NCBI GenBank assembly: GCA_965214015.1
Contig: CBDCAS010000022.1
Span: forward strand, 274,175 to 298,174
DNA length: 24,000 bases
Origin: Coxiellaceae bacterium
GTDB taxonomy: Bacteria > Pseudomonadota > Gammaproteobacteria > Coxiellales > Coxiellaceae
Direction: 5' to 3'
Shown one piece after another: positions 9,921 through 24,000 of the stretch. Made by a program: the position numbers and the translations under genes. The notes under the pieces are model-generated. The model saw nothing but the letters and a program-made list of their open reading frames with translations, was not told where the DNA came from and did no database searches. How positions within the stretch are numbered: the stretch's first letter is position 1; the number at the start of each line of letters is the position of its first letter.

Positions 9921-10230
9921 ATAGCGATCAGATTAAAGAACTTGAAAAAAAATTATGGAATTCAGCCGATAATCTTCGTGCAAATTCCAAATTAACAGCG
10001 GCAGAATATAAAGATCCTATTCTAGACCTAATTTTATTATTTTATGTACTAAATGACAGGTCTGATTAATAATTGTTCAATTGAAAAACTTAATGGAGAA
10101 TAAGGATATTTGCGAAGCGGTTAATCAAGCCATGCTCAGGCTTAAAAAAATATAAAGATCTTGAGGAGGATTGTTGCCAAAAATTATCAATATAAATTTG
10201 TGAACAGTTACGCAGAAATTTTTAATTGGG
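9920..10230 (+). pseudogene. hsdM: Decayed 5' remnant of a type I restriction-modification methylase gene (hsdM, HsdM_N region only)
   Basis: There is no start codon. Positions 9920-10066 translate to NSDQIKELEKKLWNSADNLRANSKLTAAEYKDPILDLILLFYVLNDRSD*. That fits the HsdM N-terminal signature (..LW..AD.LRG....EYK...L.LIFLKY..). Positions 10093-10152 give MENKDICEAVNQAMLRLKKI*. With frame changes, '..KDL..' and 'AKNYQYKF' follow. These resemble the next conserved HsdM_N block as I remember it (..Am..IEkeN..LkgvlPknY..). No catalytic N6-methyltransferase domain follows. Confidence 0.55.
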
Positions 10231-10246
10231 AAATGGAACTTTACCA

Positions 10247-11770: not shown

Positions 11771-11781
11771 GGAGTGCCTTA

Positions 11782-11919
11782 ATGCAAACATTTAACTTTA
11801 ATGAAGAATATCTATCACAAATTTCTAATTTAATTATAATTGACCAATATCTGAGTGCAATCTACAATATTCAACCAACCCATAAAAGTTATAACTTATT
11901 GATTTTGGTAGAAAATTAG
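11782..11919 (+). CDS. Hypothetical 45-aa ORF immediately downstream of the DUF6119-like gene
   Basis: The ATG lies 7 nt after GAGGAG (11769-11774) and 11 nt after the upstream stop. Translation is MQTFNFNEEYLSQISNLIIIDQYLSAIYNIQPTHKSYNLLILVEN. It may be a gene fragment. Confidence 0.3.
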   Translation: MQTFNFNEEYLSQISNLIIIDQYLSAIYNIQPTHKSYNLLILVEN

Positions 11920-12570
11920 TGAAAACTCAAAATTTAAACCCTTGTCACTGTGAATGCCCGCCTTATGATGCAAAAACACGCAGTGATAGAATAGGTAATT
12001 TACCGATTTTAAATAATTAATTTTTCAAATGACAACATATTTCACAAAATACCGCATGTCATGTAAGCGGTGAAAGGCGTAACGCCTTTGGCAATGAAGG
12101 CGATTATATTCGGATTGTCTGTTTACTGAAATTGTCATTTTCGGCAATATTTTTTTAAATATACGCTAAGTTCAGTGATAGCAATATCATTGGCTTTGTT
12201 TACCCTACCAAATATTAACTAACCACTATAAGTTAATGGTTATTATACTTTAAACGATTTCACTGCTATCTGAGCAATGCGCACATCAGATAACTTTAAC
12301 TATTCTTATTAACTTCGATATATCGAGTTAATGAAATTTTACTGTGAGCTATAAAGTTTACATCGTTTGATGCAACCAACTGGAAACAGATTAATAGTCT
12401 GGGTTTTACACCGAGATTATGAATAGGCTTACGGCCTTGGTTGTTAGGTTACGCCAAAGCAAGTTCTACTTGTCCGTTGATAAGCCTATCGGCTTATCGC
12501 GTGGTGTACCACCACTAAACAAGCACAAAAACGATAGTACAGTTCAAATTTTCAAAACAGCAAGCGCTTA

Positions 12571-12605
12571 GCGTCACGTTATGACAGAAATGTCTAACGT
12601 GACGC
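12571..12605. other. Long hairpin: 15-bp stem (one bulged T) with a GAAA tetraloop, about 80 nt upstream of the recombinase ORF
   Basis: GCGTCACGTTATGACA-GAAA-TGTCTAACGTGACGC, read directly. A second 6-bp hairpin, ACGCGC-AGA-GCGCGT at 12602-12616, overlaps its 3' arm. The two structures are therefore mutually exclusive. Confidence 0.5.
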
Positions 12606-12723
12606 GCAGAGCGCGTTATATAATAAATATTATGAATCAATAAGATAAACCACTTTTAAAGGACAAAATAACCATTACCATTCCGTGACAGTTTACAAAA
12701 CGACTTATTTATCGAGGTATAGT

Positions 12724-13602
12724 GTGAGTAAAAAACATCAAATGATTAGCTCAGTCATTACAACAATTAAAAATAACAAGGACGGCTCATATAGAACGCA
12801 GGACGATCGTCGGCATGCATTAATAAAAATTGCGAAAGATGTGCATGAGCTTGGATACAAGCTTGACCATATTCGTTATATGAAACCCAAGCATATTCAT
12901 GCTTTGGTGAAGTGCTGGAAATCTCATGGTGACAATCCAGGCAGCATGAAAAATCGCATGAGTCATTTACGATGGCTGATGTGCAAATTTGATGGAAAAA
13001 TTCACATGGTACCCAGCAATGATGAGCTAGATATTCCTAGACGAATCTATATCAGTAATCAGAATAAATCTGTACAGCTAACATCGGTAGATTTTGAGCG
13101 AATTAAAGATCCTATGATGTGCCATAGTTTGAAAGGTCAAACGTTGTTTGGGCTACGTATGGAAGAGAGTATTAAACTGGAACCTTTCATCGCAGATACT
13201 GGAGAGTTTCTGTATGTACAAAAGACGAAAGGGAATCGTGAACGGATGATCCCGATTTTAACTACCAAGCAGCGAGAATGGCTTGAAGCAGCAAAGCAGT
13301 TAGCTCAGCATAACAGCCATTCCCTCATCCCAGCGGATACCCACTATAAGACCTATCGCAGTCGTTTTGATAAGGCTTGTAAGCGGGCGGGTATTAACAG
13401 TCGACATGGTTTGCGGCACTGCTATGCGCAGTGCCGCTATAAAGAATTGACGGGTTGGGAACCACCGGTAAAAGGTGGCCCTAAATTGGCTGATATGAAT
13501 TCAGATCAAAAGTACTTGGATCGCGCTGCACGATTACAAGTGAGTCTGGAGTTGGGGCATAGTCGTCGGAATATACTAAGTGTCTATATTGGCACGACAT
13601 AA
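12724..13602 (+). CDS. Tyrosine recombinase / integrase (small, plasmid/island type)
   Basis: The catalytic pattern is R ('FGLRMEES'), H-x-x-R ('HGLRHCYAQ') and H...Y ('LGHSRRNILSVYIG'). The start is ambiguous: GTG 12724 lies 6 nt after GAGG, the ORF track uses GTG 12685, and an ATG at 12742 is also possible. Confidence 0.85.
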   Translation: MSKKHQMISSVITTIKNNKDGSYRTQDDRRHALIKIAKDVHELGYKLDHIRYMKPKHIHALVKCWKSHGDNPGSMKNRMSHLRWLMCKFDGKIHMVPSNDELDIPRRIYISNQNKSVQLTSVDFERIKDPMMCHSLKGQTLFGLRMEESIKLEPFIADTGEFLYVQKTKGNRERMIPILTTKQREWLEAAKQLAQHNSHSLIPADTHYKTYRSRFDKACKRAGINSRHGLRHCYAQCRYKELTGWEPPVKGGPKLADMNSDQKYLDRAARLQVSLELGHSRRNILSVYIGTT

Positions 13603-13615
13603 ATATGTCTTAACA

Positions 13616-13643
13616 TTGACCTAAAATATTAATATGATACAAT
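13616..13643 (+). promoter_or_regulatory. Sigma70-like promoter TTGACC-N16-TACAAT upstream of the excisionase-like gene
   Basis: The -35 is at 13616-13621 and the -10 at 13638-13643. A second ATTGACC copy sits at 13644-13650, and a 7-bp hairpin (CAGTAAG..CTTACTG) follows. Motif match only. Confidence 0.4.
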
Positions 13644-13697
13644 ATTGACCATTAACAGTAAGGACAACGATGCTTACTGATTGTAAGGTGCGAAGCT

Positions 13698-13910
13698 ATG
13701 AGCCATGAAAATAATATACAACAGTTTGATTTATTAACACAAAAAGAAGCAGCGACTATGATTCGCATGTCTGAAGCTTGGTTTGAGCGGCAACGCTGGG
13801 AGCACAAAGGGATACCTTATATTAAAATAGGGGGTCGTGTGTTTTATGAGAAAGAAGATCTAGTTAAGTGGGTTAAAAAGCAGAAAAGTAAGCCTAATAC
13901 TAAAAGTTGA
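13698..13910 (+). CDS. Excisionase/AlpA-like (MerR-superfamily HTH_17) DNA-binding protein
   Basis: 70 aa. 'LLTQKEAATMIRMSEAWFERQRWEHKGIPYIKIGGRVFYEKEDLVKWV' fits the excisionase-family HTH pattern (..kEaA..l.vs...l.r.r..g.gP.y.kiG.rv.Y...dl..W). It lies directly after the recombinase gene. Confidence 0.8.
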   Translation: MSHENNIQQFDLLTQKEAATMIRMSEAWFERQRWEHKGIPYIKIGGRVFYEKEDLVKWVKKQKSKPNTKS

Positions 13911-14234
13911 AACTGTTACAATGGTTGGTGCGTGTAAAGAGGGCATTGCTAAAATTCAGTAAGAGAGATGTATAGTCTCTAATTGGGTTAAAATACCTAT
14001 TTTCTAAATGCTTAAAGATTAAGCTTTTTTCAATTTTAGCTGAGAATCAAGCCTACTACCTTTAGATAGTAGTGTAGAGCGTTTGGATCAATAGAGTTGT
14101 TGTATTCACTAATTGTTGATTGAGTTAATATGAACATTGTAGTAGCTAATGAGTGAAATAATAGAGCAAAATATATTCAAAAAAACAATCTTCACCTTTG
14201 GTATTGGATGTATAGTTCAAAGAGGTAAATTTTG

Positions 14235-14960
14235 ATGAATAGAAGTTCTGAAAAAAAAGTTGCAGTCATCACTGGTGCTAGTGGAGGTATTGGTGAAGGA
14301 GTGGCACGTTATTTTCTTGAAAAAAATTATAAAACAATTTTGATTGGAAGGAATGTTAATCGAATAGAAAGTTTGAGCACAGAGTTTTCTGGAGAGAATG
14401 TGACAATATTGAGTTGTGATCTTAGAAATCATGAGGAAATAGTAAAAAATATAAATATAACTCTCGATGCGCAAGCTAGAGTTGATGTATTAGTTAACAG
14501 TGCAGGATATGTAAAGCGTGGTACTTCCGATCTTTCACATGAAGAATTTGTGAAAATGCTAGAAACTAATTTGGTTGGGTTATTTGATATCACTAATGCA
14601 GTTATTCCTATCATGAAGAAGCAGTCCGCTGGAAGAATTATTAATATATCTTCTTATTCAGGTGTTGTAGCAAGAGATTGTTTAGGTGGGTATGCGGCCT
14701 CTAAATTTGGCTTAATGGGTTTGAATGAATCTCTGCATAAAGAGTTAGCACCTTACGGTATTTATGTCACTGCTATTTGTCCTAACTTAGTAGATACAGA
14801 AATGACCAGGGATGTAACTTCAATTGAGCGAAGTGAGTTTATTCAAGTAGATGATATTGTGAAAACAATTAATTATCTTATGAATCTCACGCCTAGCGTT
14901 ATGGTAAAAGAGTTAGTTCTTAGATGTCGTGCGAAGTTGCTTAAAACAGTAGATGGGTAA
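14235..14960 (+). CDS. Short-chain dehydrogenase/reductase (classical SDR)
   Basis: It has 'TGASGGIG' (TGxxxGxG), 'NSAG' and the catalytic 'YAASK' (YxxxK). The ATG at 14235 lies 9 nt after AGAGG. Confidence 0.9.
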   Translation: MNRSSEKKVAVITGASGGIGEGVARYFLEKNYKTILIGRNVNRIESLSTEFSGENVTILSCDLRNHEEIVKNINITLDAQARVDVLVNSAGYVKRGTSDLSHEEFVKMLETNLVGLFDITNAVIPIMKKQSAGRIINISSYSGVVARDCLGGYAASKFGLMGLNESLHKELAPYGIYVTAICPNLVDTEMTRDVTSIERSEFIQVDDIVKTINYLMNLTPSVMVKELVLRCRAKLLKTVDG

Positions 14961-15407
14961 ATATTTAGATATGAATAAACTTCATAAATTATTTTCTGGA
15001 ATTATCGATTTTACTATTTTTTTATTCTTTATCTTAAGCTTTATACTTCTAATATAGAGTGACTGACTGCATAGGAAAATCAATTTATTCAATCAATAGA
15101 ATAGAAAATGATGACAGCTGATTAAGCTACTGAAAAATTTATTAACTTGAGGCAGCTTATGCAAAAAATAAAGATTTAATGAGTCATTTATCCATGAATA
15201 AATGTAACTCTTTATTTAAGAAAACTGTATCTAGTTATGATCTTATTTTAGTTTGATAGTCCTCTTATTGGGTTCAAACCCCCATTTTCCAGATGGTTTA
15301 AACACGTAAGACATGCGAAGCATGACATTGCAAACTTTAGTGCGCTAGCATATCCGGCTTACAGCCAAGATTTCCAACCCACCAACTTTTAGTTGGTGGT
15401 AGTTGAG

Positions 15408-15440
15408 TTAAGAGGATATTTTAGCTCCCTCTTAATTTTA
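15408..15440 (+). terminator. Terminator-like hairpin TTAAGAGG-(12 nt)-CCTCTTAA followed by TTTTA
   Basis: Read directly. It is preceded by a 9-bp hairpin, CCACCAACT-TTT-AGTTGGTGG, at 15379-15399. No intact upstream gene ends here. The loop is long and the stem AT-rich, hence the low confidence. Confidence 0.3.
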
Positions 15441-15454
15441 GTTATAATGAGCAT

Positions 15455-15760
15455 TTGAAAAAGCATCATGAAAAATTAAGTCCTAATACAGCATCTAGAA
15501 ATTTGAAAGTCTCTCTTAAGGAAGAAATCAAGGATTTGGGTTTTTCTTTAAATAAAGAAAGCTATTATTATGTCCCAAGTATTTTGCCATGTTATAAAAA
15601 GAAATATTATGAATATATGATAGAAACAAGTAAAATAATCGGTTGTGAGAAAAAAGTTTTGGATGATATTAACAATTGGTATGAGTTAACAAATGCTTTT
15701 GAACAGATAGGATTGTTCATAAATTACCACATAAGATCAGATGGAAAAAATAGATGTTAG
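15455..15760 (+). CDS. Hypothetical protein; possibly the detached N-terminal part of the downstream hydrolase
   Basis: It is a 101-codon ORF starting at a TTG with no SD. A TATAAT at 15443-15448 lies only 6 nt upstream, which makes this start doubtful. The C-terminus '..GLFINYHIRSDGKN' resembles the first beta-hairpin that normally precedes the GGPG motif of S33 hydrolases. Confidence 0.35.
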   Translation: MKKHHEKLSPNTASRNLKVSLKEEIKDLGFSLNKESYYYVPSILPCYKKKYYEYMIETSKIIGCEKKVLDDINNWYELTNAFEQIGLFINYHIRSDGKNRC

Positions 15761-16521
15761 ATGAACTGCAGTGGATAGTTGTGCCTGGAGGCCCAGGATT
15801 GTCAAATAGCTATTTAAGGTATGCTTTGGAAAAGATACCTATAGCGTGTAAGTTACATTTTTATGACGTGTATGGTTCTCCTGAATCTGATAATAAAAAT
15901 CCTAGCCTTAATGAAATGACTGATCAGATTGATCTTGTAGCTAATAAAAATAATCTAAGTGAATATGGTTTAATCACACACTCCTTTGGTAATTACCTTG
16001 TTATGAGAGCATTTCAAAAATCTAAAGGAAGTATTAAAGCAATTATTATGTTAAATCCTATTCCTTATGAATTTCATGCCTGGAAAGAAGCTTTATCTGG
16101 TATTATAAAAAGAGTTCCAGAAACTATTTTTAAGGAGATGATATCTTTATCAAGCTCTGATAAGCCTGATGCTGGAGTTAAGCTATTTCGTTTGATATTC
16201 CGTTACTATGTAGCAAATAGAGATTCAGATTTGCCAGTAGAAGTTCCTTTTGATAGTAATGTATGTAACACTATTGCGGGAAAAGTACCTAAATATAATG
16301 ATAAAGAGTTAGTTTCTTCAGCCTCTATTCCAATAGTAAGGATTGTTGGAGGTTCAGATCTTTTTTTTGATGATCATAAAATTTTGCTAGAAAGAACAAT
16401 TATCTTACCTAAAGTAGGACATTATCCGTTTTTTGGGGATCCAGACAGTTTTTACAAAGCTATAAGAAATGCAGGAGAATTGTTATGTCAGCAGATGGCA
16501 AAAATGACAAAAAAGTGCTGA
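15754..16521 (+). CDS. Alpha/beta hydrolase (S33 prolyl-aminopeptidase-like)
   Basis: The oxyanion motif 'VPGGPG' is only 10 residues from the N-terminus. The nucleophile elbow is 'THSFGN' and a C-terminal 'VGHYPFF' supplies the His. A 7-nt overlap joins it to the upstream ORF. Confidence 0.8.
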   Translation: MLDELQWIVVPGGPGLSNSYLRYALEKIPIACKLHFYDVYGSPESDNKNPSLNEMTDQIDLVANKNNLSEYGLITHSFGNYLVMRAFQKSKGSIKAIIMLNPIPYEFHAWKEALSGIIKRVPETIFKEMISLSSSDKPDAGVKLFRLIFRYYVANRDSDLPVEVPFDSNVCNTIAGKVPKYNDKELVSSASIPIVRIVGGSDLFFDDHKILLERTIILPKVGHYPFFGDPDSFYKAIRNAGELLCQQMAKMTKKC

Positions 16522-16706
16522 TAAGATTGCGTGATATTCGTAGATCCAAAGGTATGTCGCTTAATGCGTTGGCTGATGAGGTTATGGAAGTCATAGCCTT
16601 GATTGAAAATTTTGTTATTATTGATAACTCAGTGGAGGTAGATATGGAAAGTAAAGCAAGGTCTGACATCAAAAGGGAGTTAAAAGTTCTAACTGATGGT
16701 AGCTAA
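16485..16706 (+). CDS. Small (73 aa) XRE-like HTH protein, putative cluster-associated regulator
   Basis: The ATG lies 7 nt after AGGAG (16473-16477). 'LIRLRDIRRSKGMSLNALADEV..ALIEN' resembles the first two or three helices of HTH_3. It overlaps the hydrolase 3' end by 37 nt and the convergent methyltransferase 3' end by 18 nt. Confidence 0.4.
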   Translation: MSADGKNDKKVLIRLRDIRRSKGMSLNALADEVMEVIALIENFVIIDNSVEVDMESKARSDIKRELKVLTDGS

Positions 16707-17807
16707 AATTAATGCAGCATCACTGTGATGATTGTTAAAAAATACGGCGTGTGTTTTTTTATATCCAGTTAATTGCAATACAGTTTGCCAAGTATCAGCT
16801 GATATAAGTGGTGTAAATTTTCTCCAGTTATCATTAAACAACCACCATCCATGAGTTATACCCATGATTAAATTGTTCCAGCGACCGGTTGATGTAGTTT
16901 CTAAAAGACATAAGGTACCATTTTTTGATAATAACGTTTGTAGATTTTTAAGCGTTAATTCTAGATTTGGTGTGGCATGCACGATGTCTTGCCCAATGAT
17001 TATATCATATGAATTTGGAACTAAATTTTGCCCTAATGGCTCTCTTGTTACATCAAATTTGAAGCAATATAAATTACTAATTTGTTTTTTACTTCCATAA
17101 CGTTTCATGTCGATTACGAATCGCTTTGATAAGTCTGTGAAATGATATTTAAGGTTATGTGTAGGTTTGATATAGTCAAACAGTTGACGAGTAAAAAGAC
17201 CACGTCCACCACCTATCTCAAGAATTCGTAGAGGTATAGTATTGTTGATTTTTAATGTAGATTGTATGGCAATGTCTTGAATTATCGGCATTTCTGAGTA
17301 TGTATCTGTGTCTTGAGAGTAGAGTTTATCAAGAAAATTTGTATTGCCTGCGGGGAATAAAATACTAATAGATGGTACTGTTTCTGATAATGCTACTGGG
17401 TAATGATTGACACAGTGCTGGAGAAGTTCAAGTGTACCTTGGAACATCGGATAACTATTTTTCAAAGTTGCTATATCAATTGGTATTTTCTGGTTTGATT
17501 TGAATGTTAGAGAATTACTTTCAATCTTTATTAGGCCATCATCATTAAGAATTTTCAACATATACCTATAAAATTTGGTAAAATTGTTAGTAATGTTTAA
17601 TTTGTTTTTTAATGTATCAATGTTTATCTGTCGACTACAACCAGAAGAGAGCAGATAATTATAAACATAAGCAGCGCATAGCTGATTACACTTTTGAAAA
17701 AAATCGGGAAATTGTTTATCTAAATCAGGAACATTGCGATAAGTTGTTAAGTGAATATTTTCGGCGATATCCATGAAATAATGAAAGTTATTAGTTTCAG
17801 TACGCAT
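16689..17807 (-). CDS. Class I SAM-dependent methyltransferase (type 12-like, with an N-terminal helical domain)
   Basis: 372 aa. Motif I is 'RILEIGGGRGLFTRQL', followed by an acidic 'HFTDLS' post-I region. About 190 aa precede the Rossmann fold, as in natural-product methyltransferases. Confidence 0.85.
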   Translation of the reverse strand: MRTETNNFHYFMDIAENIHLTTYRNVPDLDKQFPDFFQKCNQLCAAYVYNYLLSSGCSRQINIDTLKNKLNITNNFTKFYRYMLKILNDDGLIKIESNSLTFKSNQKIPIDIATLKNSYPMFQGTLELLQHCVNHYPVALSETVPSISILFPAGNTNFLDKLYSQDTDTYSEMPIIQDIAIQSTLKINNTIPLRILEIGGGRGLFTRQLFDYIKPTHNLKYHFTDLSKRFVIDMKRYGSKKQISNLYCFKFDVTREPLGQNLVPNSYDIIIGQDIVHATPNLELTLKNLQTLLSKNGTLCLLETTSTGRWNNLIMGITHGWWLFNDNWRKFTPLISADTWQTVLQLTGYKKTHAVFFNNHHSDAALILATIS

Positions 17808-17816
17808 TAAATTTCT

Positions 17817-18791
17817 CTATAATTTGCTAGTTAACCTCATAACATCTTGGTGTTTGGGTCCTGGTAAACTATCTAAGTAGGCATTGATAGTATCGGTGAC
17901 GGCAGCTTCACAATCTCTGTATACCGGACTACCAGCACCTTTAAATAATTTATAAGTAAGTCTGTTACTTGGTATTGCACTTGCTGTTCGCTTAGCACTC
18001 GCAAGAGTATGAACGGGGTTTTGATCACCTGCCAAAACCAATATAGGACATTCTACATTAAGTAGATATGGCAAGAAGTTAAAGTAATTTAGCTCACGAT
18101 TATTAAAAATGTAAGCAACTTCAGGATTGGTGACACAATTGGTGATCATTTCTGGTTCATAAGGCTTGGTTGCACAATATGGGATACAGGTTCTAACATA
18201 CTCAGCATAGGTCTTAGCATTTGTATTAGAGAACATTTTTTTAGCAACAGAGCATACTTCAGTTACCCTAGTTTCATCATAGCCTTTGTCTCTGACCTTC
18301 TGTGCGAAGTGTTCTAATACTTCATCTAAATTAAATTGAGCATCGGTATCACAAAGAATTAGCCCACCAAGTTTACTTGGATATTGTGTGGCACAGGACA
18401 TTGCAACAAATCCACCAAACGAGACACCAGCTAAGATAGGTTGTTCAATTCCAAAAGCAGTAAAAAAAGTATGAACATCTTTACCCCATTGTTCTAATGT
18501 CCAGAGAGATTCATCACCATAGTCTCTAGTACCCTCTTTTTCATAGTAACTTCGGCCAGAACCTCGATGGTCAATAAATATAACTTGCAAAGGTAAACCA
18601 GATAGATTTTTAGTACTAAATTTAGACCAATAGGATTCATATAGTGTATGATCTACAACCCCTGGACCACCATGAAGAAATATTAAAGTGTGTTGCTTTG
18701 GATTAATTTTTTTATTTAATTCTTCTGTTGAACCATAGACTTTGTAAAATATTCTTATATCATTGGGAATTTCAAAATAATTAGTAAACAT
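17817..18791 (-). CDS. Alpha/beta hydrolase, prolyl aminopeptidase (S33) family
   Basis: 324 aa. It has 'LIFLHGGPG' and the nucleophile elbow 'GVSFGG'. GAGGATAG lies upstream of the ATG. It is 12 nt downstream of the transporter gene. Confidence 0.85.
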   Translation of the reverse strand: MFTNYFEIPNDIRIFYKVYGSTEELNKKINPKQHTLIFLHGGPGVVDHTLYESYWSKFSTKNLSGLPLQVIFIDHRGSGRSYYEKEGTRDYGDESLWTLEQWGKDVHTFFTAFGIEQPILAGVSFGGFVAMSCATQYPSKLGGLILCDTDAQFNLDEVLEHFAQKVRDKGYDETRVTEVCSVAKKMFSNTNAKTYAEYVRTCIPYCATKPYEPEMITNCVTNPEVAYIFNNRELNYFNFLPYLLNVECPILVLAGDQNPVHTLASAKRTASAIPSNRLTYKLFKGAGSPVYRDCEAAVTDTINAYLDSLPGPKHQDVMRLTSKL

Positions 18792-18803
18792 AACTACTAT
18801 CCT

Positions 18804-19514
18804 CTAAGTTTTATTTTTTGTGTCTAATGAAAATGGATTGAAATTTATATTTGATTCAACAACATTTAAGCCAAGCTTACGTTTAAGATAACTCACTAAA
18901 AAAGCTACTGGTATGCCACCAATTATTGTATAACTTAATCTTACTATAAGATCAGATAAAAATAATTTTTCAATTACAATGATAGGTACAGAACCCCAGA
19001 AAGATAATAGAAAGAACACTGCAAGGGCAATAGCACTACCTAGTAAAGTTGAGAATACACTTCGTAACCAAAAAAAACGTCCTTTTAATAAAATTTTCCA
19101 TTTAGTCATTAAAATAATGTTTGCAAATCTACCAATGAACATTGCTAGTACTGCTGCTGGAGCAGTTTTTAGAATGGGGTCAAATATTGCATCATAATTT
19201 GCTTGAGAGTGCCAATAGCTGGGTGATGGCAAGTGTACAATAAATACAACAGCAAGTGAGAAAATAATGGTGCTTGCAAAAATCATCCATAACAAATATC
19301 TTGATACTTTATAACCATATATTTCAACAATAATATCTTCAAGTAAAAAAATAAATGGTAGTATAGCTAATCCACCAGGGCCAACTAGGGGGCCCATAGC
19401 AATTAATTTATATGTGACAGGGATACCAATTAAATTAATGGTATAATAAAGCATAGTTAGAAATCCTAGCACTTTAGATTTTTTATCGAAGTTTAAAGCG
19501 TTATTTGGTTGCAT
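18804..19514 (-). CDS. VUT-family (DUF165, YhhQ-like queuosine-precursor transporter family) membrane protein
   Basis: 236 aa and polytopic. 'LPFIFLLEDIIVEIYGYKVSR' aligns with E. coli YhhQ 'FPFIFLATDLTVRIFGAPLAR'. 'FWLRSVFSTLLGSAIALAVFFLLSF' aligns with 'WWLAPTASTLFGNVSDTLAFFFIAF'. Both YhhQ segments are recalled from memory. GAGGATAG lies upstream of the ATG. Confidence 0.8.
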   Translation of the reverse strand: MQPNNALNFDKKSKVLGFLTMLYYTINLIGIPVTYKLIAMGPLVGPGGLAILPFIFLLEDIIVEIYGYKVSRYLLWMIFASTIIFSLAVVFIVHLPSPSYWHSQANYDAIFDPILKTAPAAVLAMFIGRFANIILMTKWKILLKGRFFWLRSVFSTLLGSAIALAVFFLLSFWGSVPIIVIEKLFLSDLIVRLSYTIIGGIPVAFLVSYLKRKLGLNVVESNINFNPFSLDTKNKT

Positions 19515-19534
19515 TACTCTATCCTCATTCTCAA

Positions 19535-22500
19535 TTATTTATTGAAAAGTTCTTCAAACATATTGTTATCTTGCATCATACTAATGATATTTTGATGTTT
19601 AGCATTGACGTTTATAACTTCAACTGTATTTGTAATTTCTCCCCAAAAGTTTGTGGCATTATTTTCTACGACCATCTCTAAATCAACAGCGTTAGCTTTA
19701 TAGAGTTTAATATGGTGATTAGAAATCTGAGGTTGATAGTTAATTAACATCTTTAAACGCATCCATAGCATTTTTTTCCATAATTCATCTTCAAAAATAT
19801 ATGATTTATCAAGCTTTTTATACCATATGTTTTTAAATAGTCTAAAGACATTGTATTTTTTAGGATACTTTGCCCAACTATCAAGCATAATAATTTGGTT
19901 TACAAAGATTCCTGATTTTTGTAGTTGGAGTGCCATTTCATAGGCTACGTTTCCACCAAATGACCAACCGCATAGTGTAATTTCGTTAGTTAGATGGTCT
20001 TTGAGCATATTGATATAGTATTGAGCCATATCTTCTATAGAATTGATATCAGAATTAATATCATTTAGAACCTGGTTTTCAACACTAATAATTCTAGTAT
20101 TAGGAAGGTAAAGCTCAGAAAAGAAATTATATTGATAACTACTTCCACTACCAGAATGAATCAATACCAGTATGTTTTGGCCATCTTTTTTAAGGATATT
20201 ATATGTAGGTAAATTTCTATTATCCTTTTTAAGAAGAATGGCTATCAATTCCTCAAAATTATTAGATTTATAAAAATCATCTATGCTAATTAATATATTA
20301 TATCTTATATGTATTTGAGTTATGATCCCTAGAGCTATTAATGAGTCACCATCTAAATTAAAAAAATTATCACTTAAATTAACTGAATCCATATCCAAAT
20401 CTTTCGCTATAATATTTAAAATATCTTTAATGATTTCTAAATGCTGCATTCCACTGATTAGTATATGCGTTTGACTGTTATTATTTATATTTTCCAATGG
20501 TTTATTTTTCTTATGCTCAATATTTACATTGTTAGTTTGATTATTAGATTCAAAAAAATATTTTTCTGTATTTTGAAAAATAGCAGTTGAGTCATGCTTT
20601 TCTCTGAAATTTGATGCAGTTTTTTCAGATTTTAATAGTACATGAACGTTGGTACCACCAATGCCAAACGAGCTCACTCCGGCATATAAAACATCTTTGG
20701 ATAAGTTTACAATTCTCGCGTTAATTATAAATTTTTCGGAAAATTCATGACATAGTGGATTCCATTTCTTAAAATTAATTTGTGGCGGGATGATCTTTTG
20801 GTTTAAAACTAGAGCTGTTTTAATTAATCCACATAAGCCAGCTGCTGCACCTGTATGACCAATATTTGCTTTACTTGCACCAAGATAAGTTATATTTCCA
20901 TTACTGTTTGTTATTGATTCAGATAAAGCTTTTAATTCAACTGCATCGCCAATTTTAGTACCTGTGCCGTGAGTTTCTATAAATTTTAATGACTCAGTAT
21001 TGAAATTTTGGTATATATTTTTTAGACAGTTACTTTGCCCTGAAATACTCGGTGCAATGTAACCAACTTTATCATTGCCATCATTATTAATTGAATAACT
21101 CTGGATGGTGGCAACTATGCTGTCACCATCTTGAATAGCAGCTTCATGTTTTTTAAGTGCAATGGCCACTACAGCAGAACCAGGTACAGTGCCTGACGAG
21201 TTTTCATCAAAAGGACAACACTTACCATCATTAGACATAATACCATCCGGCTCAAAATAGTATCCAGGCAAATATTCCTCGAGAACCATAGAAGCAGCGC
21301 AGACAATGGCAATCTCACATTCATTATTTTTTAGACTGTTTATCGCTTGAGTACATGCTGTAAGAGAGCTTGAACAGGCAGTACTCACAGTAACAGCAGG
21401 ACCATTTAAACCCAGCTTATAAGCAATTCGGGTTGCAATAAAGTCTCTAGAATTTCCATATTGAAGATTTCGTTTAACTTGCCAAGGTAAATTATTTTCG
21501 TGGATAAGTTTTTTATATTGTGAACTATCTATGCTTGCAAATACACCTATATTTTGATTTTTGATTGTAGTTTCAATGTTTGCATTTAGTAAACACGCGT
21601 AACAAATTTCTAACAACATTCGTTGTTGTGGATCAATATATTTTGCCTCTGAAGGTGAGATTTTAAAAAATTTAGCATCAAAAATATATGGATTATTCAG
21701 TACACCCGCAATGGGTATAAAAGATTCATCATACTTTGATAAACTCACGGATGTATTGAAATTTGTTAGGCAATTCTTTCCATCAAGTAAATTTTGCCAA
21801 AAATATGAGATGTTATCAGCGTCTGGAAATTTACCAGCCATACCAATTATTGCAACAGTTTGATTATCTGATGTATTCCTTGATAGTTTTGTGATTTCAT
21901 CGGTGTTTACTTGTGATGGATTATGTAGATAATGATTAAGTTTTTCTATGCTAGGATAGTTAAAAATATCTATTACACTAATCGATTTTTGAAGTGCTGC
22001 AGAAAGTTCGGCGGCTAGTTGAACGGCTAATATTGAATTCCCACCAATTTCAAAGAAATTATCATCAAGTTCAGAAGTCTCATGTTTCAGCAATTTTTCC
22101 CAGATATGTCTGATTATGTTAATATCAGTATTCACAGGCCATTTTTTTATATTTTTTTGCTTCTTCTTTGCTTTGCTATCTAAATAGGATTTAAGATTCT
22201 TAAAGTCTATTTTTCCATTCGTTGTTTTTGGAAGTTTTGCAATTATTTCAAAGCGACTAGGAAGCATGTATATCGGTAGCTTCATACTGGCGAAATTCTT
22301 GAGTGCTCTAATTAAGTCAGTTTCATCTGCCATTGGTAGTTGCAAGATTGGCAACTTGTTAATTTGATTGATAGACTTCCTACTAGCAAATACTATAAAT
22401 AAATTTGTTTCAGTCAAAGAGTCAATTTTATAACAATGTAGATTATATCCTTTTATTGTTAACAATTCTTTTATGGGAGTAAGTCTACTATCAACATTAT

Positions 22501-24000
22501 TGACTTCAATGACAATCGTTTGGATGATATTCCAGTGGTTATTTTTGATGCCAAGCAATATATCAAGCTCAGAACCTTCTGAATCTATTTTTAATAAATC
22601 AATTTGTTTGATATAGTGCTTCTCAATTTGATCTGATAATGTTTCGACATTACATTCAATAGATTTAGATTTTAATTTATAATTGACAATATCATTTTTT
22701 AAATGATTGTTATCAATATTTAGCGAAGACTTCAATAAATATTTCTGTTCGTCAGTATAGTTATATAATGTTGACATCGATGTTACATTTTCGAAATATG
22801 TAAATCGTTTTGTGCCAGATCTATTTGATAAACCTACAGTATTGATAGTGAGGTTAAGACTATATAGATTTTTATTAGTGTTAATACACTCGCAAAGTGG
22901 CGCAAAAGGTTCATAAGCATATATCTTTGCTTTGCTATTCATCAAGCCAACAAATAAGGAAAATAGCCCTATATTTGCACCCACATCAAAAATAACAGAA
23001 TCATCACTAATTTCTGTTTTACATCTCAAATAATCTTGATTAATGAAAATTTCTTTGTATAAAGAAAGTGTTTCGCTTGGATTTATATCAGAGACTAGTA
23101 AACCATTAGGTAATTTTGTTTTATGGGTAAAATCACTATTTTGTAGGCTCATAAGGTTGAGTATTGGCCTTGCTAAAGTATGGCTTGGGACAACAAATAC
23201 AATCAGTGATTTTTGAGAATCATTTTCATCATCAACATATATAGCTATATCATCAATATATTCAGAGGTAGCCAATATTGATTCTATCTCCTTCAACTCT
23301 ATACGGTAACCTCTAATCTTTACCTGTGAATCATTGCGACCAATATATGACACTAAAGAATTATTATCTTTAATCGCAATATCACCTGTTTTATAAAATG
23401 ATTTATCAGTGTAATTTGTTAATCTTAAAAATTGATCTTCAGTGAATTTTTTGTTGTTGATATATCCTTGTGCTACACAGTTTCCATAAATATATATTTC
23501 TCCAAAAAATCCAGGTGGAACTTCTAATTTTCTTTCATCTAAAAGTAGTATTGAATTACCATATAGTGGTTTCCCAATTGGTGTGCCAATTCTATTTTCA
23601 CGTATCACGTACTCATCAAGAAACTGGTAAGTGACATGTATCGTTCCTTCGGTAATACCATACATGTTAACTAAATATGGAATTTGAGAAGAAAAGTAAT
23701 TAAACCAATTTAGAATTACTTGATTATTAATTGCTTCACCACCAAAAATTATATACCGAAGCGGTAGCACTTTCTCATACCGCTGTTTAATAGCCTGCTG
23801 TGAGAAAATGCTAAATGCTGTTGGTGTTTGATTAAGTATGGTAATATTTTTGTCGATTATTAGCTGGTATAAATGATCAGGTGATTGAATGGTGATTTTA
23901 CTTGGGATAACTAGCTTAGAACCATGTAGTAATGCTCCAAAAATTTCCCAGATTGAAAAGTCAAAAGAGTATGAATGATATAGTAGCCAGCAATCATTGG
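19535..24000 (-). CDS. Hybrid NRPS-PKS megasynthase, 5'-truncated by the window edge. Visible domain order: A(interrupted by methyltransferase)-T-KS-T-TE.
   Basis: The ORF-track start at 23770 is only the first in-frame start codon. I translated the frame upstream and it stays open to position 24000 (..NDCWLLYHSYSFDFSIWEIFGALLHGSKLVIPSKITIQSPDHLYQLIIDKNITILNQTPTAFSIFSQQAIKQRYEK-VLPLRY..). That stretch is A-domain sequence. Domain motifs are listed in the sub-features below. Confidence 0.95.
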   Translation of the reverse strand, partial: NDCWLLYHSYSFDFSIWEIFGALLHGSKLVIPSKITIQSPDHLYQLIIDKNITILNQTPTAFSIFSQQAIKQRYEKVLPLRYIIFGGEAINNQVILNWFNYFSSQIPYLVNMYGITEGTIHVTYQFLDEYVIRENRIGTPIGKPLYGNSILLLDERKLEVPPGFFGEIYIYGNCVAQGYINNKKFTEDQFLRLTNYTDKSFYKTGDIAIKDNNSLVSYIGRNDSQVKIRGYRIELKEIESILATSEYIDDIAIYVDDENDSQKSLIVFVVPSHTLARPILNLMSLQNSDFTHKTKLPNGLLVSDINPSETLSLYKEIFINQDYLRCKTEISDDSVIFDVGANIGLFSLFVGLMNSKAKIYAYEPFAPLCECINTNKNLYSLNLTINTVGLSNRSGTKRFTYFENVTSMSTLYNYTDEQKYLLKSSLNIDNNHLKNDIVNYKLKSKSIECNVETLSDQIEKHYIKQIDLLKIDSEGSELDILLGIKNNHWNIIQTIVIEVNNVDSRLTPIKELLTIKGYNLHCYKIDSLTETNLFIVFASRKSINQINKLPILQLPMADETDLIRALKNFASMKLPIYMLPSRFEIIAKLPKTTNGKIDFKNLKSYLDSKAKKKQKNIKKWPVNTDINIIRHIWEKLLKHETSELDDNFFEIGGNSILAVQLAAELSAALQKSISVIDIFNYPSIEKLNHYLHNPSQVNTDEITKLSRNTSDNQTVAIIGMAGKFPDADNISYFWQNLLDGKNCLTNFNTSVSLSKYDESFIPIAGVLNNPYIFDAKFFKISPSEAKYIDPQQRMLLEICYACLLNANIETTIKNQNIGVFASIDSSQYKKLIHENNLPWQVKRNLQYGNSRDFIATRIAYKLGLNGPAVTVSTACSSSLTACTQAINSLKNNECEIAIVCAASMVLEEYLPGYYFEPDGIMSNDGKCCPFDENSSGTVPGSAVVAIALKKHEAAIQDGDSIVATIQSYSINNDGNDKVGYIAPSISGQSNCLKNIYQNFNTESLKFIETHGTGTKIGDAVELKALSESITNSNGNITYLGASKANIGHTGAAAGLCGLIKTALVLNQKIIPPQINFKKWNPLCHEFSEKFIINARIVNLSKDVLYAGVSSFGIGGTNVHVLLKSEKTASNFREKHDSTAIFQNTEKYFFESNNQTNNVNIEHKKNKPLENINNNSQTHILISGMQHLEIIKDILNIIAKDLDMDSVNLSDNFFNLDGDSLIALGIITQIHIRYNILISIDDFYKSNNFEELIAILLKKDNRNLPTYNILKKDGQNILVLIHSGSGSSYQYNFFSELYLPNTRIISVENQVLNDINSDINSIEDMAQYYINMLKDHLTNEITLCGWSFGGNVAYEMALQLQKSGIFVNQIIMLDSWAKYPKKYNVFRLFKNIWYKKLDKSYIFEDELWKKMLWMRLKMLINYQPQISNHHIKLYKANAVDLEMVVENNATNFWGEITNTVEVINVNAKHQNIISMMQDNNMFEELFNK
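19538..20188 (-). other. Type I thioesterase (TE) domain
   Basis: It has 'LVLIHSGSGSSYQY', the nucleophile 'LCGWSFGG', 'IIMLDSW' (Asp) and 'NAKHQNI' (His). It is the terminal domain before the stop at 19535-19537. Confidence 0.85.
20225..20458 (-). other. Carrier domain T2 (ACP-like)
   Basis: It has 'DNFFNLDGDSLIALGI'. It lies only about 60-90 Asn-rich residues after the end of the KS. Confidence 0.8.
20630..21862 (-). other. Ketosynthase (KS) domain with an intact Cys-His-His triad
   Basis: It has 'VAIIGMAGKFPDA', 'DPQQRMLLE', 'TVSTACSSSL' (Cys codon at 21374-21376), 'ETHGTGTKIGD' and 'SKANIGHTGAAAG'. Confidence 0.9.
21926..22138 (-). other. Carrier domain T1 (PCP)
   Basis: It has 'DDNFFEIGGNSILAVQL'. 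The phosphopantetheine Ser codon is at 22034-22036. Confidence 0.85.
22181..22375 (-). other. C-terminal A-domain subdomain (motifs A9-A10)
   Basis: 'LPIYMLPS' (A9) and 'NGKIDFKNL' (A10, with the invariant Lys) follow the methyltransferase insert. Confidence 0.85.
22376..23128 (-). other. FkbM-family (Methyltransf_21-like) methyltransferase domain inserted between A8 and A9
   Basis: It contains 'NPSETLSLYKEIFINQDY', 'VIFDVGANIGLFSLF', 'KIYAYEPFAPL', 'RFTYFENVTSMSTL' and 'IDLLKIDSEGSELDIL'. The DVGANiG and KiD.EG.E signatures are how I remember FkbM-family methyltransferases. Confidence 0.75.
23129..24000 (-). other. NRPS adenylation domain, core part (motifs A4-A8 visible)
   Basis: The motifs are 'FDFSIWE' (A4), 'NMYGITEGT' (A5), 'GEIYIYGNCVAQGYIN' (A6), 'YKTGD' (A7) and 'GRNDSQVKIRGYRIELKEIE' (A8). 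Confidence 0.9.

What the first reader, a model, noticed from the sequence alone, without database searches (positions are those of the whole stretch)
14235..24000. AT-rich hybrid NRPS-PKS biosynthetic gene cluster, only partly in view
The region holds two convergent gene sets. On the plus strand are the SDR, a hypothetical ORF, an S33-like hydrolase and a small HTH. On the minus strand is a tightly packed operon with intergenic gaps of 9-20 nt and recurring GAGGATAG SD sequences: NRPS-PKS, then VUT transporter, then S33 hydrolase, then SAM methyltransferase. The whole block is far more AT-rich than the core genome, which suggests horizontal acquisition. I cannot match the combination (interrupted A domain, AT-less KS, two prolyl-aminopeptidase-like hydrolases, a YhhQ-type transporter) to any characterised pathway. 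The product is probably a small modified amino-acid/ketide hybrid.
Basis: partly seen in the sequence, partly recalled or inferred. Interest (0 to 1): 0.7.

Follow-up and report, generated by a model that had tools for sequence, protein, structure and literature searches.

The report
Orphan mobile NRPS-PKS cluster with VUT transporter
The right end of the window carries most of a rare, mobile four-to-six-gene operon whose single giant enzyme should join an unknown starter, O-methyl-threonine and one malonate unit into a small, probably tetramic-acid-like molecule; the kind of cluster is ordinary, but its fixed accessory genes are unusual and its product is unknown.

Summary
A tightly packed minus-strand operon (16689 to beyond 24000) encodes an NRPS-PKS, a VUT/YhhQ-family transporter, an S33-like alpha/beta hydrolase and a SAM methyltransferase. 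It lies in a 32% GC block, against 41% GC for the core, downstream of tRNA-Lys.

- **Megasynthase.** A 100% identical public protein gives the full enzyme: 2207 aa, T0-C-A(O-MT)-T-KS-T-TE. Only T0, C and the first part of A lie off-window. All catalytic motifs are intact.
- **A domain.** The specificity code is DFWNIGMIHK, 9 of 10 to the threonine code. The inserted methyltransferase carries the KtzH-type Ser/Thr O-methylation motif.
- **Separate methyltransferase.** It is a homologue of PKS C-methyltransferases (CurJ, E=7e-35).
- **Closest characterised logic.** C-A-T plus AT-less KS-T-TE matches MucD/MucE and RtcN/RtcK, which make N-acyl tetramic acids (mutanocyclin, reutericyclin).
- **Conservation.** Megasynthase-VUT-hydrolase-MT recurs in five close relatives. 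The VUT pairing also recurs in three much more distant lineages with other gene orders.
- **Not supported.** The plus-strand genes (SDR, orf101, second hydrolase) are absent from relatives, and the "small HTH" has no HTH hit.

Verdict: a real, probably functional, uncharacterised variant of a known kind. Interest is moderate.

The parts
19535..24000 (-). 3' two-thirds of the NRPS-PKS megasynthase gene. These are residues 721-2207 of a 2207-aa protein with architecture T0-C-A(O-MT)-T1-KS-T2-TE. The gene continues beyond the window end.
   Evidence: The frame is open from 23998 to the stop codon at 19535-19537. It is 100% identical over 100% of its length to P0001, 2207 aa. All catalytic motifs are intact and conserved in relatives.
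23462..23998 (-). Adenylation domain core, motifs A4 to A6, with A7/A8 just downstream. The specificity code is DFWNIGMIHK.
   Evidence: PF00501 E=1.7e-30. The code was extracted by alignment to the GrsA PheA segment: 9/10 to the Thr code DFWNIGMVHK. Relative P0005 has the exact Thr code. PDB relatives include Thr1 (5n9w) and ObiF1.
22469..22987 (-). FkbM-type methyltransferase inserted between A8 and A9. This makes it an interrupted A domain of family 2a (type II M domain, O-methylation of Ser/Thr).
   Evidence: PF05050 E=2.5e-16. A8 lies at window-protein residues 220-239, the MT at 338-510 and A9 at 574-581. The SAM motif DVGANIG fits the DVGx(N/H)xG motif described for KtzH-type domains (PMC8341866).
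21929..22114 (-). Carrier domain T1 (PCP), motif GGNS.
   Evidence: PF00550; serine motif conserved.
20525..21859 (-). Ketosynthase domain with Cys-His-His (TACSSS, HGTGT, NIGHT). No AT domain follows it.
   Evidence: PF00109, PF02801 and PF16197. Motifs. The closest solved KSs come from trans-AT and hybrid lines: 7zma, ClbC, ClbK, PksL, PksJ.
20231..20431 (-). Carrier domain T2 (ACP), motif DGDS. Boundaries are approximate.
   Evidence: Second PF00550 stretch. The serine motif lies at window-protein residues 1214-1223.
19538..20173 (-). Thioesterase domain with GWSFGG, a conserved Asp (MLDSW) and His (AKHQN).
   Evidence: PF00975 E=7.5e-18; motifs conserved in relatives.
18804..19514 (-). VUT/YhhQ-family membrane transporter, 236 aa.
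   Evidence: PF02592 E=1.6e-28. TIGR00697 scores 85.5 bits against a cut-off of 51, but E. coli YhhQ model NF008406 scores 34.9 against 252. It is 71-72% identical in relatives L001-3 and 69% in L087. In every context read it lies close to, and usually directly beside, a C-A-T-KS-T-TE gene.
17817..18791 (-). S33-like alpha/beta hydrolase, 324 aa, with an atypical catalytic layout: Ser124, Asp256, His261, and Ser288 at the canonical His position.
   Evidence: Pfam and NCBIfam hits. PDB sequence hits are proline iminopeptidases and esterases. It is 60-65% identical in relatives. His261 and His288 are mutually exclusive across 117 representatives.
16689..17807 (-). Free-standing PKS-type C-methyltransferase homologue, 372 aa.
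   Evidence: PF08242. CurJ C-MT (5thy) E=7.2e-35 and DisA (6cca) E=1.9e-32, with the His of VHAT and the Glu of LLE aligned to CurJ's LHAT and LYE. It is 44-51% identical in relatives.
19519..19526 (-). Shine-Dalgarno-like GAGGATAG, 4 nt upstream of the VUT ATG.
18797..18804 (-). Shine-Dalgarno-like GAGGATAG, 5 nt upstream of the hydrolase ATG. It overlaps the VUT stop codon.
14232..16706 (+). Neighbouring plus-strand genes: SDR 14232-14960, orf101 15455-15760, weak alpha/beta hydrolase 15754-16521, unsupported 73-aa ORF 16485-16706. They share the AT-rich island, but their membership of the cluster is not supported.
   Evidence: Domains. No orthologues lie beside the operon in L001-3, L084, L085 or L087.
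7900..13910 (+). Mobile-element context: tRNA-Lys(UUU) 7900-7972, CapH/CapP-like pair 8731-9920, DUF6119 gene 10226-11770, tyrosine recombinase 12685-13602, AlpA-like HTH_17 gene 13698-13910.
   Evidence: GC falls from 0.41 to 0.25-0.34 after the tRNA.

Best explanation
This is a functional, horizontally mobile biosynthetic operon. Its core is one fused NRPS-PKS enzyme that works like MucD+MucE (or RtcN+RtcK) joined into a single polypeptide.

**Proposed steps**
1. T0 is loaded in trans with an unknown acyl or aminoacyl starter. This step is inferred, and the loader is not in the window.
2. The A domain activates L-threonine on T1, and the inserted type II methyltransferase O-methylates its side chain. 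This is inferred from the specificity code and the motif.
3. The C domain joins the T0-bound starter to the amino group.
4. T2 is malonylated by a trans acyltransferase, probably the housekeeping FabD, since no AT is present in the cluster. The KS then performs one decarboxylative extension, giving an N-acyl-gamma-amino-beta-ketoacyl thioester.
5. The free-standing C-methyltransferase methylates the alpha-carbon.
6. The TE releases the chain, most likely by lactam closure. The product would be an N-acyl-3-methyl-5-(1-methoxyethyl)-tetramic acid, or a close variant.

The conserved VUT transporter moves the product or a precursor across the inner membrane. The atypical alpha/beta hydrolase tailors, deacylates or detoxifies the product. 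A free-standing C-like enzyme and a small conserved protein encoded just upstream (off-window) also belong to the pathway.
For: **Shown here**
- Domain order and intact catalytic motifs.
- Thr-type specificity code, 9/10, and exact in relative P0005.
- MT inserted between A8 and A9, with the DVGx(N/H)xG motif of Ser/Thr O-methylating interrupted A domains.
- The separate MT is homologous to the CurJ and DisA C-MT domains, with aligned His and Glu.
- No AT domain is present, and only about 30 residues separate the KS from T2.
- The KS is nearest to KSs of trans-AT and hybrid lines.
- T0-C aligns end to end with the TycC PCP-C didomain.

**Shown in the literature**
- MucD (C-A-PCP) plus MucE (KS-ACP-TE) plus a trans malonyl transferase give an N-acyl tetramic acid by TE-mediated lactam closure (PMC10161427).
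- RtcN and RtcK have the same architecture (PMC13235161).

**Functional linkage**
- Megasynthase-VUT-hydrolase-MT is conserved at 44-72% identity in L001-3 and L087. The upstream C-like and small ORFs are conserved in L001-3; L087 is cut before them.
- The set also recurs in rearranged order. L084 has MT, VUT, the megasynthase and a hydrolase fragment. GCA_041443025.1 has VUT, a hydrolase, the megasynthase and an MT. L085/86 has the megasynthase and two VUT genes.
- The C-like protein has a homologue (P0127) on a contig of the same length, 399,892 bp, as the contig carrying the window's megasynthase and VUT.
Against: - No experiment or product is known for any member.
- TE chemistry (lactam closure versus hydrolysis) cannot be read from sequence, and orthology to MucE was not tested.
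- The C domain follows a carrier domain rather than being an acyl-CoA-using starter C as in MucD. The starter and its loader are unknown.
- No PPTase, AT or PhlABC-type genes are seen.
- C- versus O-methylation by the separate MT rests on homology only.
- The hydrolase lacks the canonical catalytic His.
- The right flank of this genome could not be retrieved.
Confidence: 0.6

Rival explanations
1. The assembly line is the same, but the TE releases the chain by hydrolysis. The product would be a linear N-acyl-gamma-amino-beta-keto acid, or the beta-hydroxy (statine-like) acid after reduction by a nearby SDR. The keto acid might then decarboxylate. No tetramate ring forms.
For: An SDR sits near the synthetase in several contexts. 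In the window it is at 14232-14960. In L085 an SDR/KR gene lies directly upstream of the megasynthase. In L001-3 an SDR lies in the divergent operon. TE domains commonly hydrolyse.
Against: The window SDR is only 25-30% identical to the SDRs of the relatives, which is generic SDR-level similarity, and it is not syntenic with them. The only characterised C-A-T plus KS-T-TE systems cyclise to tetramates.
Confidence: 0.22
2. Both convergent gene sets form one cluster. On this view the SDR, orf101 and the second hydrolase are tailoring enzymes for the same product.
For: These genes share the AT-rich island (GC 0.32) and lie immediately next to the operon's 3' end.
Against: None of them has an orthologue beside the operon in any relative. 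Downstream of the MT, relatives carry unrelated genes instead: an AlpA-like gene, a nucleoside hydrolase, or a 508-aa ORF.
Confidence: 0.12
3. The VUT gene is an ordinary queuosine-precursor (preQ0/preQ1) salvage transporter that merely hitch-hikes in the operon.
For: It passes the NCBIfam TIGR00697 'queuosine precursor transporter' cut-off, 85.5 against 51 bits. YhhQ is an experimentally shown preQ0 transporter (Zallot et al. 2017, cited).
Against: It scores far below the E. coli YhhQ equivalog model, 34.9 against 252 bits. No que genes or preQ1 riboswitch lie nearby. Its subfamily is tiny, with 21 homologues at E<=1e-10. Every context read is next to a C-A-T-KS-T-TE synthetase, across lineages only about 30-35% identical and with different gene orders.
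Confidence: 0.1
4. The KS does not extend the chain. It acts only as a cyclase or off-loading catalyst, like the terminal KS of fungal TAS1.
For: The TAS1 KS (6kog) is among the PDB relatives at E=1.4e-51. The distant relative P0006 has Ser in place of the KS cysteine.
Against: The window KS keeps Cys-His-His and is followed by its own carrier domain and TE. That is the layout of an extending module, as in MucE. TAS1 ranks well below many extending KSs.
Confidence: 0.05

Closest known systems
Mutanocyclin/reutericyclin synthetases: MucD+MucE (Streptococcus mutans) and RtcN+RtcK (Limosilactobacillus reuteri)
   Same: Both have one NRPS module (C-A-PCP) followed by an AT-less KS-ACP-TE. Malonyl is supplied in trans. 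The product is an N-acylated amino acid extended by one malonate and released as a tetramic acid.
   Different: Here everything is fused into one 2207-aa protein. An extra N-terminal carrier domain precedes the C domain, so this is not an acyl-CoA-using starter C. The A domain is Thr-type with an inserted O-methyltransferase. There are no PhlABC-type acetylation genes, no MucF (an HXXEE acylase), and no TetR or MFS genes. Instead the cluster carries a trans C-MT, a VUT transporter and an atypical alpha/beta hydrolase. The hosts are AT-rich Gammaproteobacteria, not Firmicutes. Sequence orthology was not tested.
KtzH-type interrupted adenylation domains (family 2a, A8-M(O,Ser/Thr)-A9)
   Same: The methyltransferase is inserted between A8 and A9. 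The SAM motif is DVGx(N/H)xG. The substrate is a hydroxy amino acid.
   Different: KtzH activates Ser and sits in a multimodular NRPS. Here the code is Thr-type and the module feeds a KS.
PKS C-methyltransferase domains (CurJ, DisA, AprA MT2)
   Same: Full-length homology (E=7e-35 to 1e-21), including the N-terminal helical subdomain and the aligned His and Glu.
   Different: Here it is a free-standing protein acting in trans rather than a domain embedded in the PKS module.
FkbH-primed NRPS starters (vioprolide, cystomanamide)
   Same: In the distant relative L084, T0 is fused to a Glyoxalase_4 plus FkbH-like (DxDxT) loader. That would place a glyceryl-derived unit on T0.
   Different: The window family has a bare T0 with no fused loader, so its starter may differ.
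YhhQ (E. coli preQ0/preQ1 importer)
   Same: Same Pfam family (Vut_1), and the protein passes TIGR00697.
   Different: It is a divergent subfamily with no queuosine context, and every context read lies near, usually beside, a C-A-T-KS-T-TE synthetase.

Membership tests
Hybrid NRPS-PKS assembly line | A, carrier, C, KS and TE domains with intact catalytic motifs in one reading frame | tested here: met
   Pfam hits. Motifs HHxxxD, A3-A10, GGxS x3, Cys-His-His and GxSxG/Asp/His are all present and conserved.
MucD/MucE (RtcN/RtcK)-type tetramate synthetase | C-A-PCP directly followed by KS-ACP-TE with no cis AT | tested here: met
   Domain order. Architecture of MucD/MucE and RtcN/RtcK.
MucD/MucE (RtcN/RtcK)-type tetramate synthetase | Starter C domain that takes a fatty acyl-CoA directly | tested here: not met
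   The C domain is preceded by a carrier domain, and T0-C aligns end to end with the internal PCP-C didomain of TycC (2jgp, E=4e-37).
MucD/MucE (RtcN/RtcK)-type tetramate synthetase | PhlABC-like C-3 acetylation genes (mucABC / rtcABC) in the cluster | tested here: not met
   None are present in the window or in about 10 kb either side in relatives.
MucD/MucE (RtcN/RtcK)-type tetramate synthetase | [quoted passage not shown] | not testable with these tools
Interrupted A domain family 2a (KtzH type) | M domain inserted between motifs A8 and A9 | tested here: met
   A8 at residues 220-239, MT at 338-510, A9 at 574-581 of the window protein.
Interrupted A domain family 2a (KtzH type) | SAM motif DVGx(N/H)xG and a Ser/Thr substrate | tested here: met
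   DVGANIG against the published motif. The code DFWNIGMIHK matches Thr at 9/10.
PKS C-methyltransferase | Full-length homology to solved C-MT domains with the catalytic His and Glu conserved | tested here: met
   5thy E=7.2e-35 and 6cca E=1.9e-32. VHAT aligns with LHAT and LLE with LYE. That these two residues form the catalytic dyad is from my own recollection of the CurJ work.
trans-AT PKS system | A dedicated trans-acting acyltransferase gene in the cluster | tested here: not met
   No PF00698 gene is present in the window or in the loci of relatives. Use of FabD is inferred.
VUT/YhhQ queuosine-precursor transporter | Passes the family model | tested here: met
   TIGR00697 at 85.5 bits against a cut-off of 51; PF02592 E=1.6e-28.
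VUT/YhhQ queuosine-precursor transporter | E. coli YhhQ equivalog score, or a queuosine context (que genes, preQ1 riboswitch) | tested here: not met
   NF008406 scores 34.9 against a cut-off of 252. Rfam finds only the tRNA. No que genes are present.
S33 prolyl aminopeptidase | Passes curated proline iminopeptidase models | tested here: not met
   TIGR01250 scores 55 against 168 and TIGR01249 scores 26 against 260. The PcaD enol-lactonase model scores higher, at 67 bits. Only the generic Pfam Hydrolase_4 and Abhydrolase_1 models pass.
S33 prolyl aminopeptidase | Canonical Ser-Asp-His triad with the His after strand beta8 | tested here: not met
   Ser124 and Asp256 are present, but the canonical His position is Ser288 in all five family members. 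His261 is invariant instead. The two positions are mutually exclusive across 117 representatives. The assignment of position 288 to the canonical site rests on alignment with canonical homologues carrying the GH motif, not on a structure.
tRNA-linked genomic island | Insertion next to a tRNA gene, a recombinase, deviant composition, and flanking direct repeats | tested here: inconclusive
   tRNA-Lys, a recombinase, an AlpA-like gene and the GC drop are all present. No repeat of the tRNA 3' end lies within the window, because the right end is off-window.

The most novel reading that the evidence does not exclude
The window samples a previously undescribed, mobile family of 'VUT-coupled' NRPS-PKS clusters. 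A fused MucD/MucE-like synthetase is partnered in every context read by a divergent YhhQ-family transporter. In most contexts it is also partnered by a trans C-methyltransferase and an alpha/beta hydrolase whose catalytic histidine has moved to a new loop. The transporter would be dedicated to the metabolite, either taking up or exporting a tetramate-like signal, metal chelator or antibiotic. That would be the first secondary-metabolite role for the VUT family. In the close relatives L001-3 (not in the window) the system may be wired to an adjacent AfsA-type butenolide pathway.
Probability: 0.3. Interest if true: 0.6.

Novelty: new variant of a known kind. Interest (0 to 1): 0.42.

Why it matters
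- If expressed, the operon should make a compact O-methyl-threonine/malonate heterocycle of a type so far known from Firmicutes (reutericyclin, mutanocyclin) and cyanobacterial pyrrolinones. Here it would come from an uncultured-type, AT-rich gammaproteobacterial lineage and sit on a mobile island.
- The strict co-occurrence of a YhhQ-family transporter with this synthetase architecture gives a testable lead on a second substrate class for a transporter family known only for queuosine-precursor salvage.
- The hydrolase offers a natural example of catalytic-histidine relocation in the alpha/beta-hydrolase fold.
- The cluster is small, about 11-13 kb with 4-6 genes. Heterologous expression is therefore realistic.

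Tried and rejected
- **Retrieving the right flank.** Exact look-ups of the window's VUT, hydrolase, IspH, P0001 and P0127 all returned nothing. The first genome-contig scan with the megasynthase found no relative.
- **Host identification.** The IspH scan gave at best 68% identity, and IleS 61%, to a Gammaproteobacteria MAG. The host stays unplaced.
- **Plasmid collection.** No plasmid carries the whole architecture, and all hits are at 32.5% identity or less. The recombinase has only about 40% relatives on small plasmids.
- **Hydrolase as a MucF analogue by homology.** Rejected. MucF is an HXXEE acylase, not an alpha/beta hydrolase.
- **orf101 as the counterpart of the 101-102-aa ORF next to the relatives' SDR.** Rejected: no similarity.
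- **The two hydrolases as paralogues.** Rejected: no significant similarity.
- **orf101 and the second hydrolase as one frameshifted gene.** Rejected on reading the sequence. The hydrolase frame has a TAG immediately before its ATG.
- **preQ1 or other riboswitch near the VUT.** None found.
- **Literature link between YhhQ/VUT and NRPS/PKS clusters.** None found.
- **AF2 model of the hydrolase.** Only a single-sequence run was allowed. It gave pLDDT 35 and is unusable, so no fold search was done on it.

Full report
**1. What is in the sequence**

On the minus strand there are four genes.
- A long gene ends at 19535 and encodes AMP-binding, Methyltransf_21 (FkbM), AMP-binding_C, PP-binding, KS (N, C and C-extension), a second PP-binding and a Thioesterase domain.
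- It is followed by a Vut_1 transporter (18804-19514).
- Next comes an Abhydrolase_1/Hydrolase_4 (S33) protein (17817-18791).
- Last is a Methyltransf_12 protein (16689-17807).

The intergenic gaps are 20, 12 and 9 nt. GAGGATAG occurs exactly twice in the window, 4-5 nt upstream of the VUT and hydrolase start codons. The MT gene has only AGAGAA.

The big gene's frame stays open to base 23998. The GTG start at 23770 is an artefact of the ORF lister, so the gene does run off the window.

On the plus strand lie an SDR (14232-14960), a 101-aa ORF with no family, and a weak alpha/beta hydrolase (15754-16521). There is also a 73-aa ORF (16485-16706) that overlaps both neighbours and has no HTH hit even at E<=10.

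GC is 0.414 in the core (1-7972), 0.323 over the plus-strand genes and 0.316 over the operon.

**2. Context**

The left third of the window is housekeeping: Nudix, ptsP, ileS, lspA, ispH. It ends at tRNA-Lys(UUU), 7900-7972.

Everything to the right of the tRNA is AT-rich and looks accessory:
- a CapH/CapP-like HTH and M78 peptidase pair;
- a 25% GC DUF6119/TIGR04141 gene;
- a tyrosine recombinase (12685-13602);
- an AlpA-like HTH_17 gene (13698-13910).

No repeat of the tRNA 3' end lies inside the window, so the island's right end is off-window.

The host could not be named. The best IspH and IleS matches among species representatives are 68% and 61%, to a Gammaproteobacteria MAG.

**3. The whole megasynthase**

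A public protein, P0001, is 100% identical over the whole in-window part. It is 2207 aa long and sits on a 399,892-bp NCBI/ENA contig. Its order is T0-C-A(MT)-T1-KS-T2-TE. Only a carrier domain, the C domain and the first part of the A domain are missing from the window. There are no further modules, and the gene is not disrupted.

Every catalytic motif is present and conserved in relatives:
- three carrier-domain serines;
- HHIIVD in the C domain;
- A3 to A10 in the A domain;
- DVGANIG in the inserted MT;
- TACSSS, HGTGT and NIGHT in the KS;
- GWSFGG, Asp and His in the TE.

No AT domain exists, and only about 30 residues separate the KS C-extension from T2.

**4. What each part should do**

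*Adenylation domain.* The Stachelhaus code was extracted by alignment to the GrsA PheA segment. I recalled that reference segment from memory; it reproduces DAWTIAAIC at the canonical positions, which serves as an internal check. The code is DFWNIGMIHK in P0001-P0004 and DFWNIGMVHK in P0005. From my own knowledge of the code table, DFWNIGMVHK is the canonical threonine code. Solved relatives include the Thr-specific Thr1 and the beta-hydroxy-amino-acid enzyme ObiF1.

*Inserted methyltransferase.* It lies between A8 and A9 and carries the DVGx(N/H)xG SAM motif. A systematic survey assigns that motif to family 2a interrupted A domains, which O-methylate Ser or Thr (KtzH type; PMC8341866). O-methyl-threonine is therefore the predicted building block.

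*T0-C.* It aligns end to end with the TycC PCP-C didomain (2jgp, E=4e-37). The C domain is thus fed from a carrier-bound donor, not from acyl-CoA.

*KS.* It is closest to KSs of trans-AT and hybrid lines: 7zma, ClbC, ClbK, PksL, PksJ.

*Separate 372-aa methyltransferase.* It is a full-length homologue of PKS C-methyltransferase domains: CurJ 5thy at E=7e-35, DisA 6cca at E=2e-32, and also AprA MT2, PsoF, and the citrinin and lovastatin synthase C-MT domains. A His (VHAT/LHAT) and a Glu (LLE/LYE) align. It most likely methylates the alpha-carbon of the beta-ketoacyl-T2 intermediate in trans.

**5. Closest characterised logic**

RtcN (C-A-PCP) plus RtcK (KS-ACP-TE) make reutericyclin (PMC13235161).

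For the homologous pair MucD and MucE, in vivo and in vitro work showed three things. MucE condenses the N-acyl-aminoacyl chain with malonyl-ACP. The malonyl unit is loaded by a trans malonyl transferase. [quoted passage not shown]

That paper also notes natural tetramates with a simple C-3 methyl group. The trans C-MT here would produce exactly that.

The window enzyme is architecturally MucD and MucE fused, with an extra T0 and an O-MT insertion. By analogy, I predict an N-acyl-3-methyl-5-(1-methoxyethyl)-tetramic acid. The ring closure and the identity of the N-acyl or aminoacyl group are inferred, not shown.

**6. Comparative genomics**

*Close relatives.* They share 48-55% identity in the megasynthase. 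Loci L001, L002, L003 and L087 come from metagenome and SRA assemblies with 33-37% GC.
- All four carry megasynthase-VUT-hydrolase-MT. Identity to the window is 69-72% for the VUT, 60-65% for the hydrolase and 44-51% for the MT.
- Where the upstream region is present (L001-3), it holds a LexA-like HTH-S24 regulator, a highly conserved 171-182-aa protein of no family and a free-standing 425-432-aa C-like protein with an intact HHxxxDG motif.

*The C-like family.* It has only nine close members among 5.8 billion proteins. One of them, P0127 (43% identical), lies on a 399,892-bp NCBI/ENA contig. That is the same length as the contig holding the window's megasynthase and VUT. The window's genome therefore very probably has the C-like gene just off-window. 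An AF2 model of P0127 (pLDDT 72, pTM 0.78) matches the condensation-domain superfamily. The best TM-scores are to AzeD dehydratase and the LgrA C domain, with Cy domains close behind and the AmbE dehydrating C slightly lower.

*The plus-strand genes.* The window's SDR, orf101 and second hydrolase have no counterparts beside the operon in any relative. Downstream of the MT, relatives carry an AlpA-like gene (L001, L003), a nucleoside hydrolase (L002) or an unknown 508-aa ORF (L087). I therefore place the left boundary of the cluster at 16689.

**7. The association reaches much further**

- **L084** (megasynthase 35% identical) has MFS, MT, VUT (47% identical), a Glyoxalase_4-FkbH-like-T0 loader, C-A(O-MT)-T-KS-T-TE and an S33 fragment (42% identical).
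- **NCBI assembly GCA_041443025.1** has an S24 regulator, a 163-aa ORF, VUT, an alpha/beta hydrolase, MFS, C-A-T-KS-T-TE and a Methyltransf_12 gene.
- **L085/L086** have SDR/KR, C-A-T-KS-T-TE (about 30% identical) and VUT, with a second VUT (40% identical) 4 kb away.

The VUT subfamily itself is tiny, with 21 homologues at E<=1e-10. Every context I could read is next to such a synthetase. This makes hitch-hiking of a housekeeping queuosine-salvage gene unlikely, for four reasons:
- the protein passes TIGR00697 but is far below the E. coli YhhQ model;
- there is no que gene or preQ1 riboswitch nearby;
- it is among the most conserved proteins of the operon;
- I found no literature linking VUT/YhhQ to NRPS or PKS clusters.

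**8. The hydrolase**

Sequence methods place it among proline-iminopeptidase-like, enol-lactonase-like and esterase-like alpha/beta hydrolases. It passes no curated model.

All five family members have Ser124 (GVSFGG) and Asp256. They carry Ser288 where canonical relatives have the catalytic His (GAGSPVY against xGH), and an invariant His261 (GDQNPVH).

Among 117 full-length representatives of the wider family, 40 have His261 only, 74 have the canonical His only, none has both and 3 have neither. This looks like a relocated catalytic histidine.

I could not test this structurally. Only a single-sequence AF2 run was allowed, and it failed with pLDDT 35.

The hydrolase's role is open. It could deacylate or detoxify the product as a functional analogue of MucF, open a ring, or transfer an acyl group. 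It is not a homologue of MucF, which is an HXXEE protein.

**9. Verdict**

- the cluster is the minus-strand operon only, plus two or three genes off-window;
- there are no extra upstream modules;
- the separate MT is a C-methyltransferase homologue;
- a characterised architectural analogue exists.

This is a new variant of a known kind, an orphan and rare NRPS-PKS family. No characterised homologue turned up in the collections and literature I could search; no MIBiG/antiSMASH comparison and no comparison with MucE/RtcK sequences was possible here. Orphan clusters are common, so interest is moderate. The features that lift it are the strict VUT coupling, the moved-His hydrolase, the small size, which suits expression, and the mobile tRNA-island setting in an unplaced AT-rich gammaproteobacterium.

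Noticed in passing
window 8731-11770: An HTH_3 gene (8731-9051) and an M78 peptidase gene (9048-9920) match PADLOC capH (1e-28) and capP (8e-57). This is the regulator pair known from CBASS and other defence systems. They sit directly upstream of a 514-aa DUF6119/TIGR04141 'sporadically distributed' gene of only 25% GC that has no PADLOC model. It may be an undescribed CapH/CapP-controlled defence gene.
   Followed up: partly
window 17817-18791: The operon's alpha/beta hydrolase lacks the canonical catalytic His (Ser288 in GAGSPVY) and has an invariant His261 five residues after Asp256. Across 117 representatives of the wider family, the two His positions are mutually exclusive: 40 against 74, with 0 having both. 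This suggests that the catalytic histidine has migrated.
   Followed up: partly
L084 3831-13117: In this distant relative, T0 is fused to a Glyoxalase_4 domain and an FkbH-like domain (VAVDCDDTLWSG). That implies a glyceryl-derived starter. A stop codon splits the C domain between two called genes. Its KS has Ser instead of the active-site Cys (TGSSTG).
   Followed up: partly
L001, L002, L003: about 1-7000: The close relatives carry a divergent operon next to the NRPS-PKS operon: AfsA, FAD monooxygenase, MFS (absent in L003), HAD hydrolase, a 101-aa ORF, SDR, AMP-ligase, ACP and KAS III (seen in L002 and L003; L001 is cut before it). This set resembles butenolide or gamma-butyrolactone biosynthesis. 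None of it is present in the window.
   Followed up: no
L001 8169-8717; L002 and L003 8142-8657: A lysine-rich 171-182-aa protein with no family is 75% identical between L001 and L002/L003, which is more conserved than the megasynthase. A 163-aa ORF occupies the same position next to the S24 regulator and VUT in GCA_041443025.1.
   Followed up: no
L001 19572-19787; L003 19567-19770; window 13698-13910: AlpA-like HTH_17 genes lie directly downstream of the MT gene in two relatives (72% identical to each other). The window's AlpA-like gene is a 32% relative. This hints that the operon travels at the edge of an integrative element.
   Followed up: partly
window 19535-24000: The ORF lister gives the megasynthase a GTG start at 23770, although the frame is open to the window end. 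Separately, the window's own proteins are present in the protein collection (P0001, P0131), but their contig cannot be retrieved by the exact look-up.
   Followed up: yes
window 6182-6802: The listed lspA ORF starts at a TTG 149 nt inside the 3' end of ileS (3496-6330). The Peptidase_A8 match begins only at residue 61, so the true start is probably further downstream.
   Followed up: no
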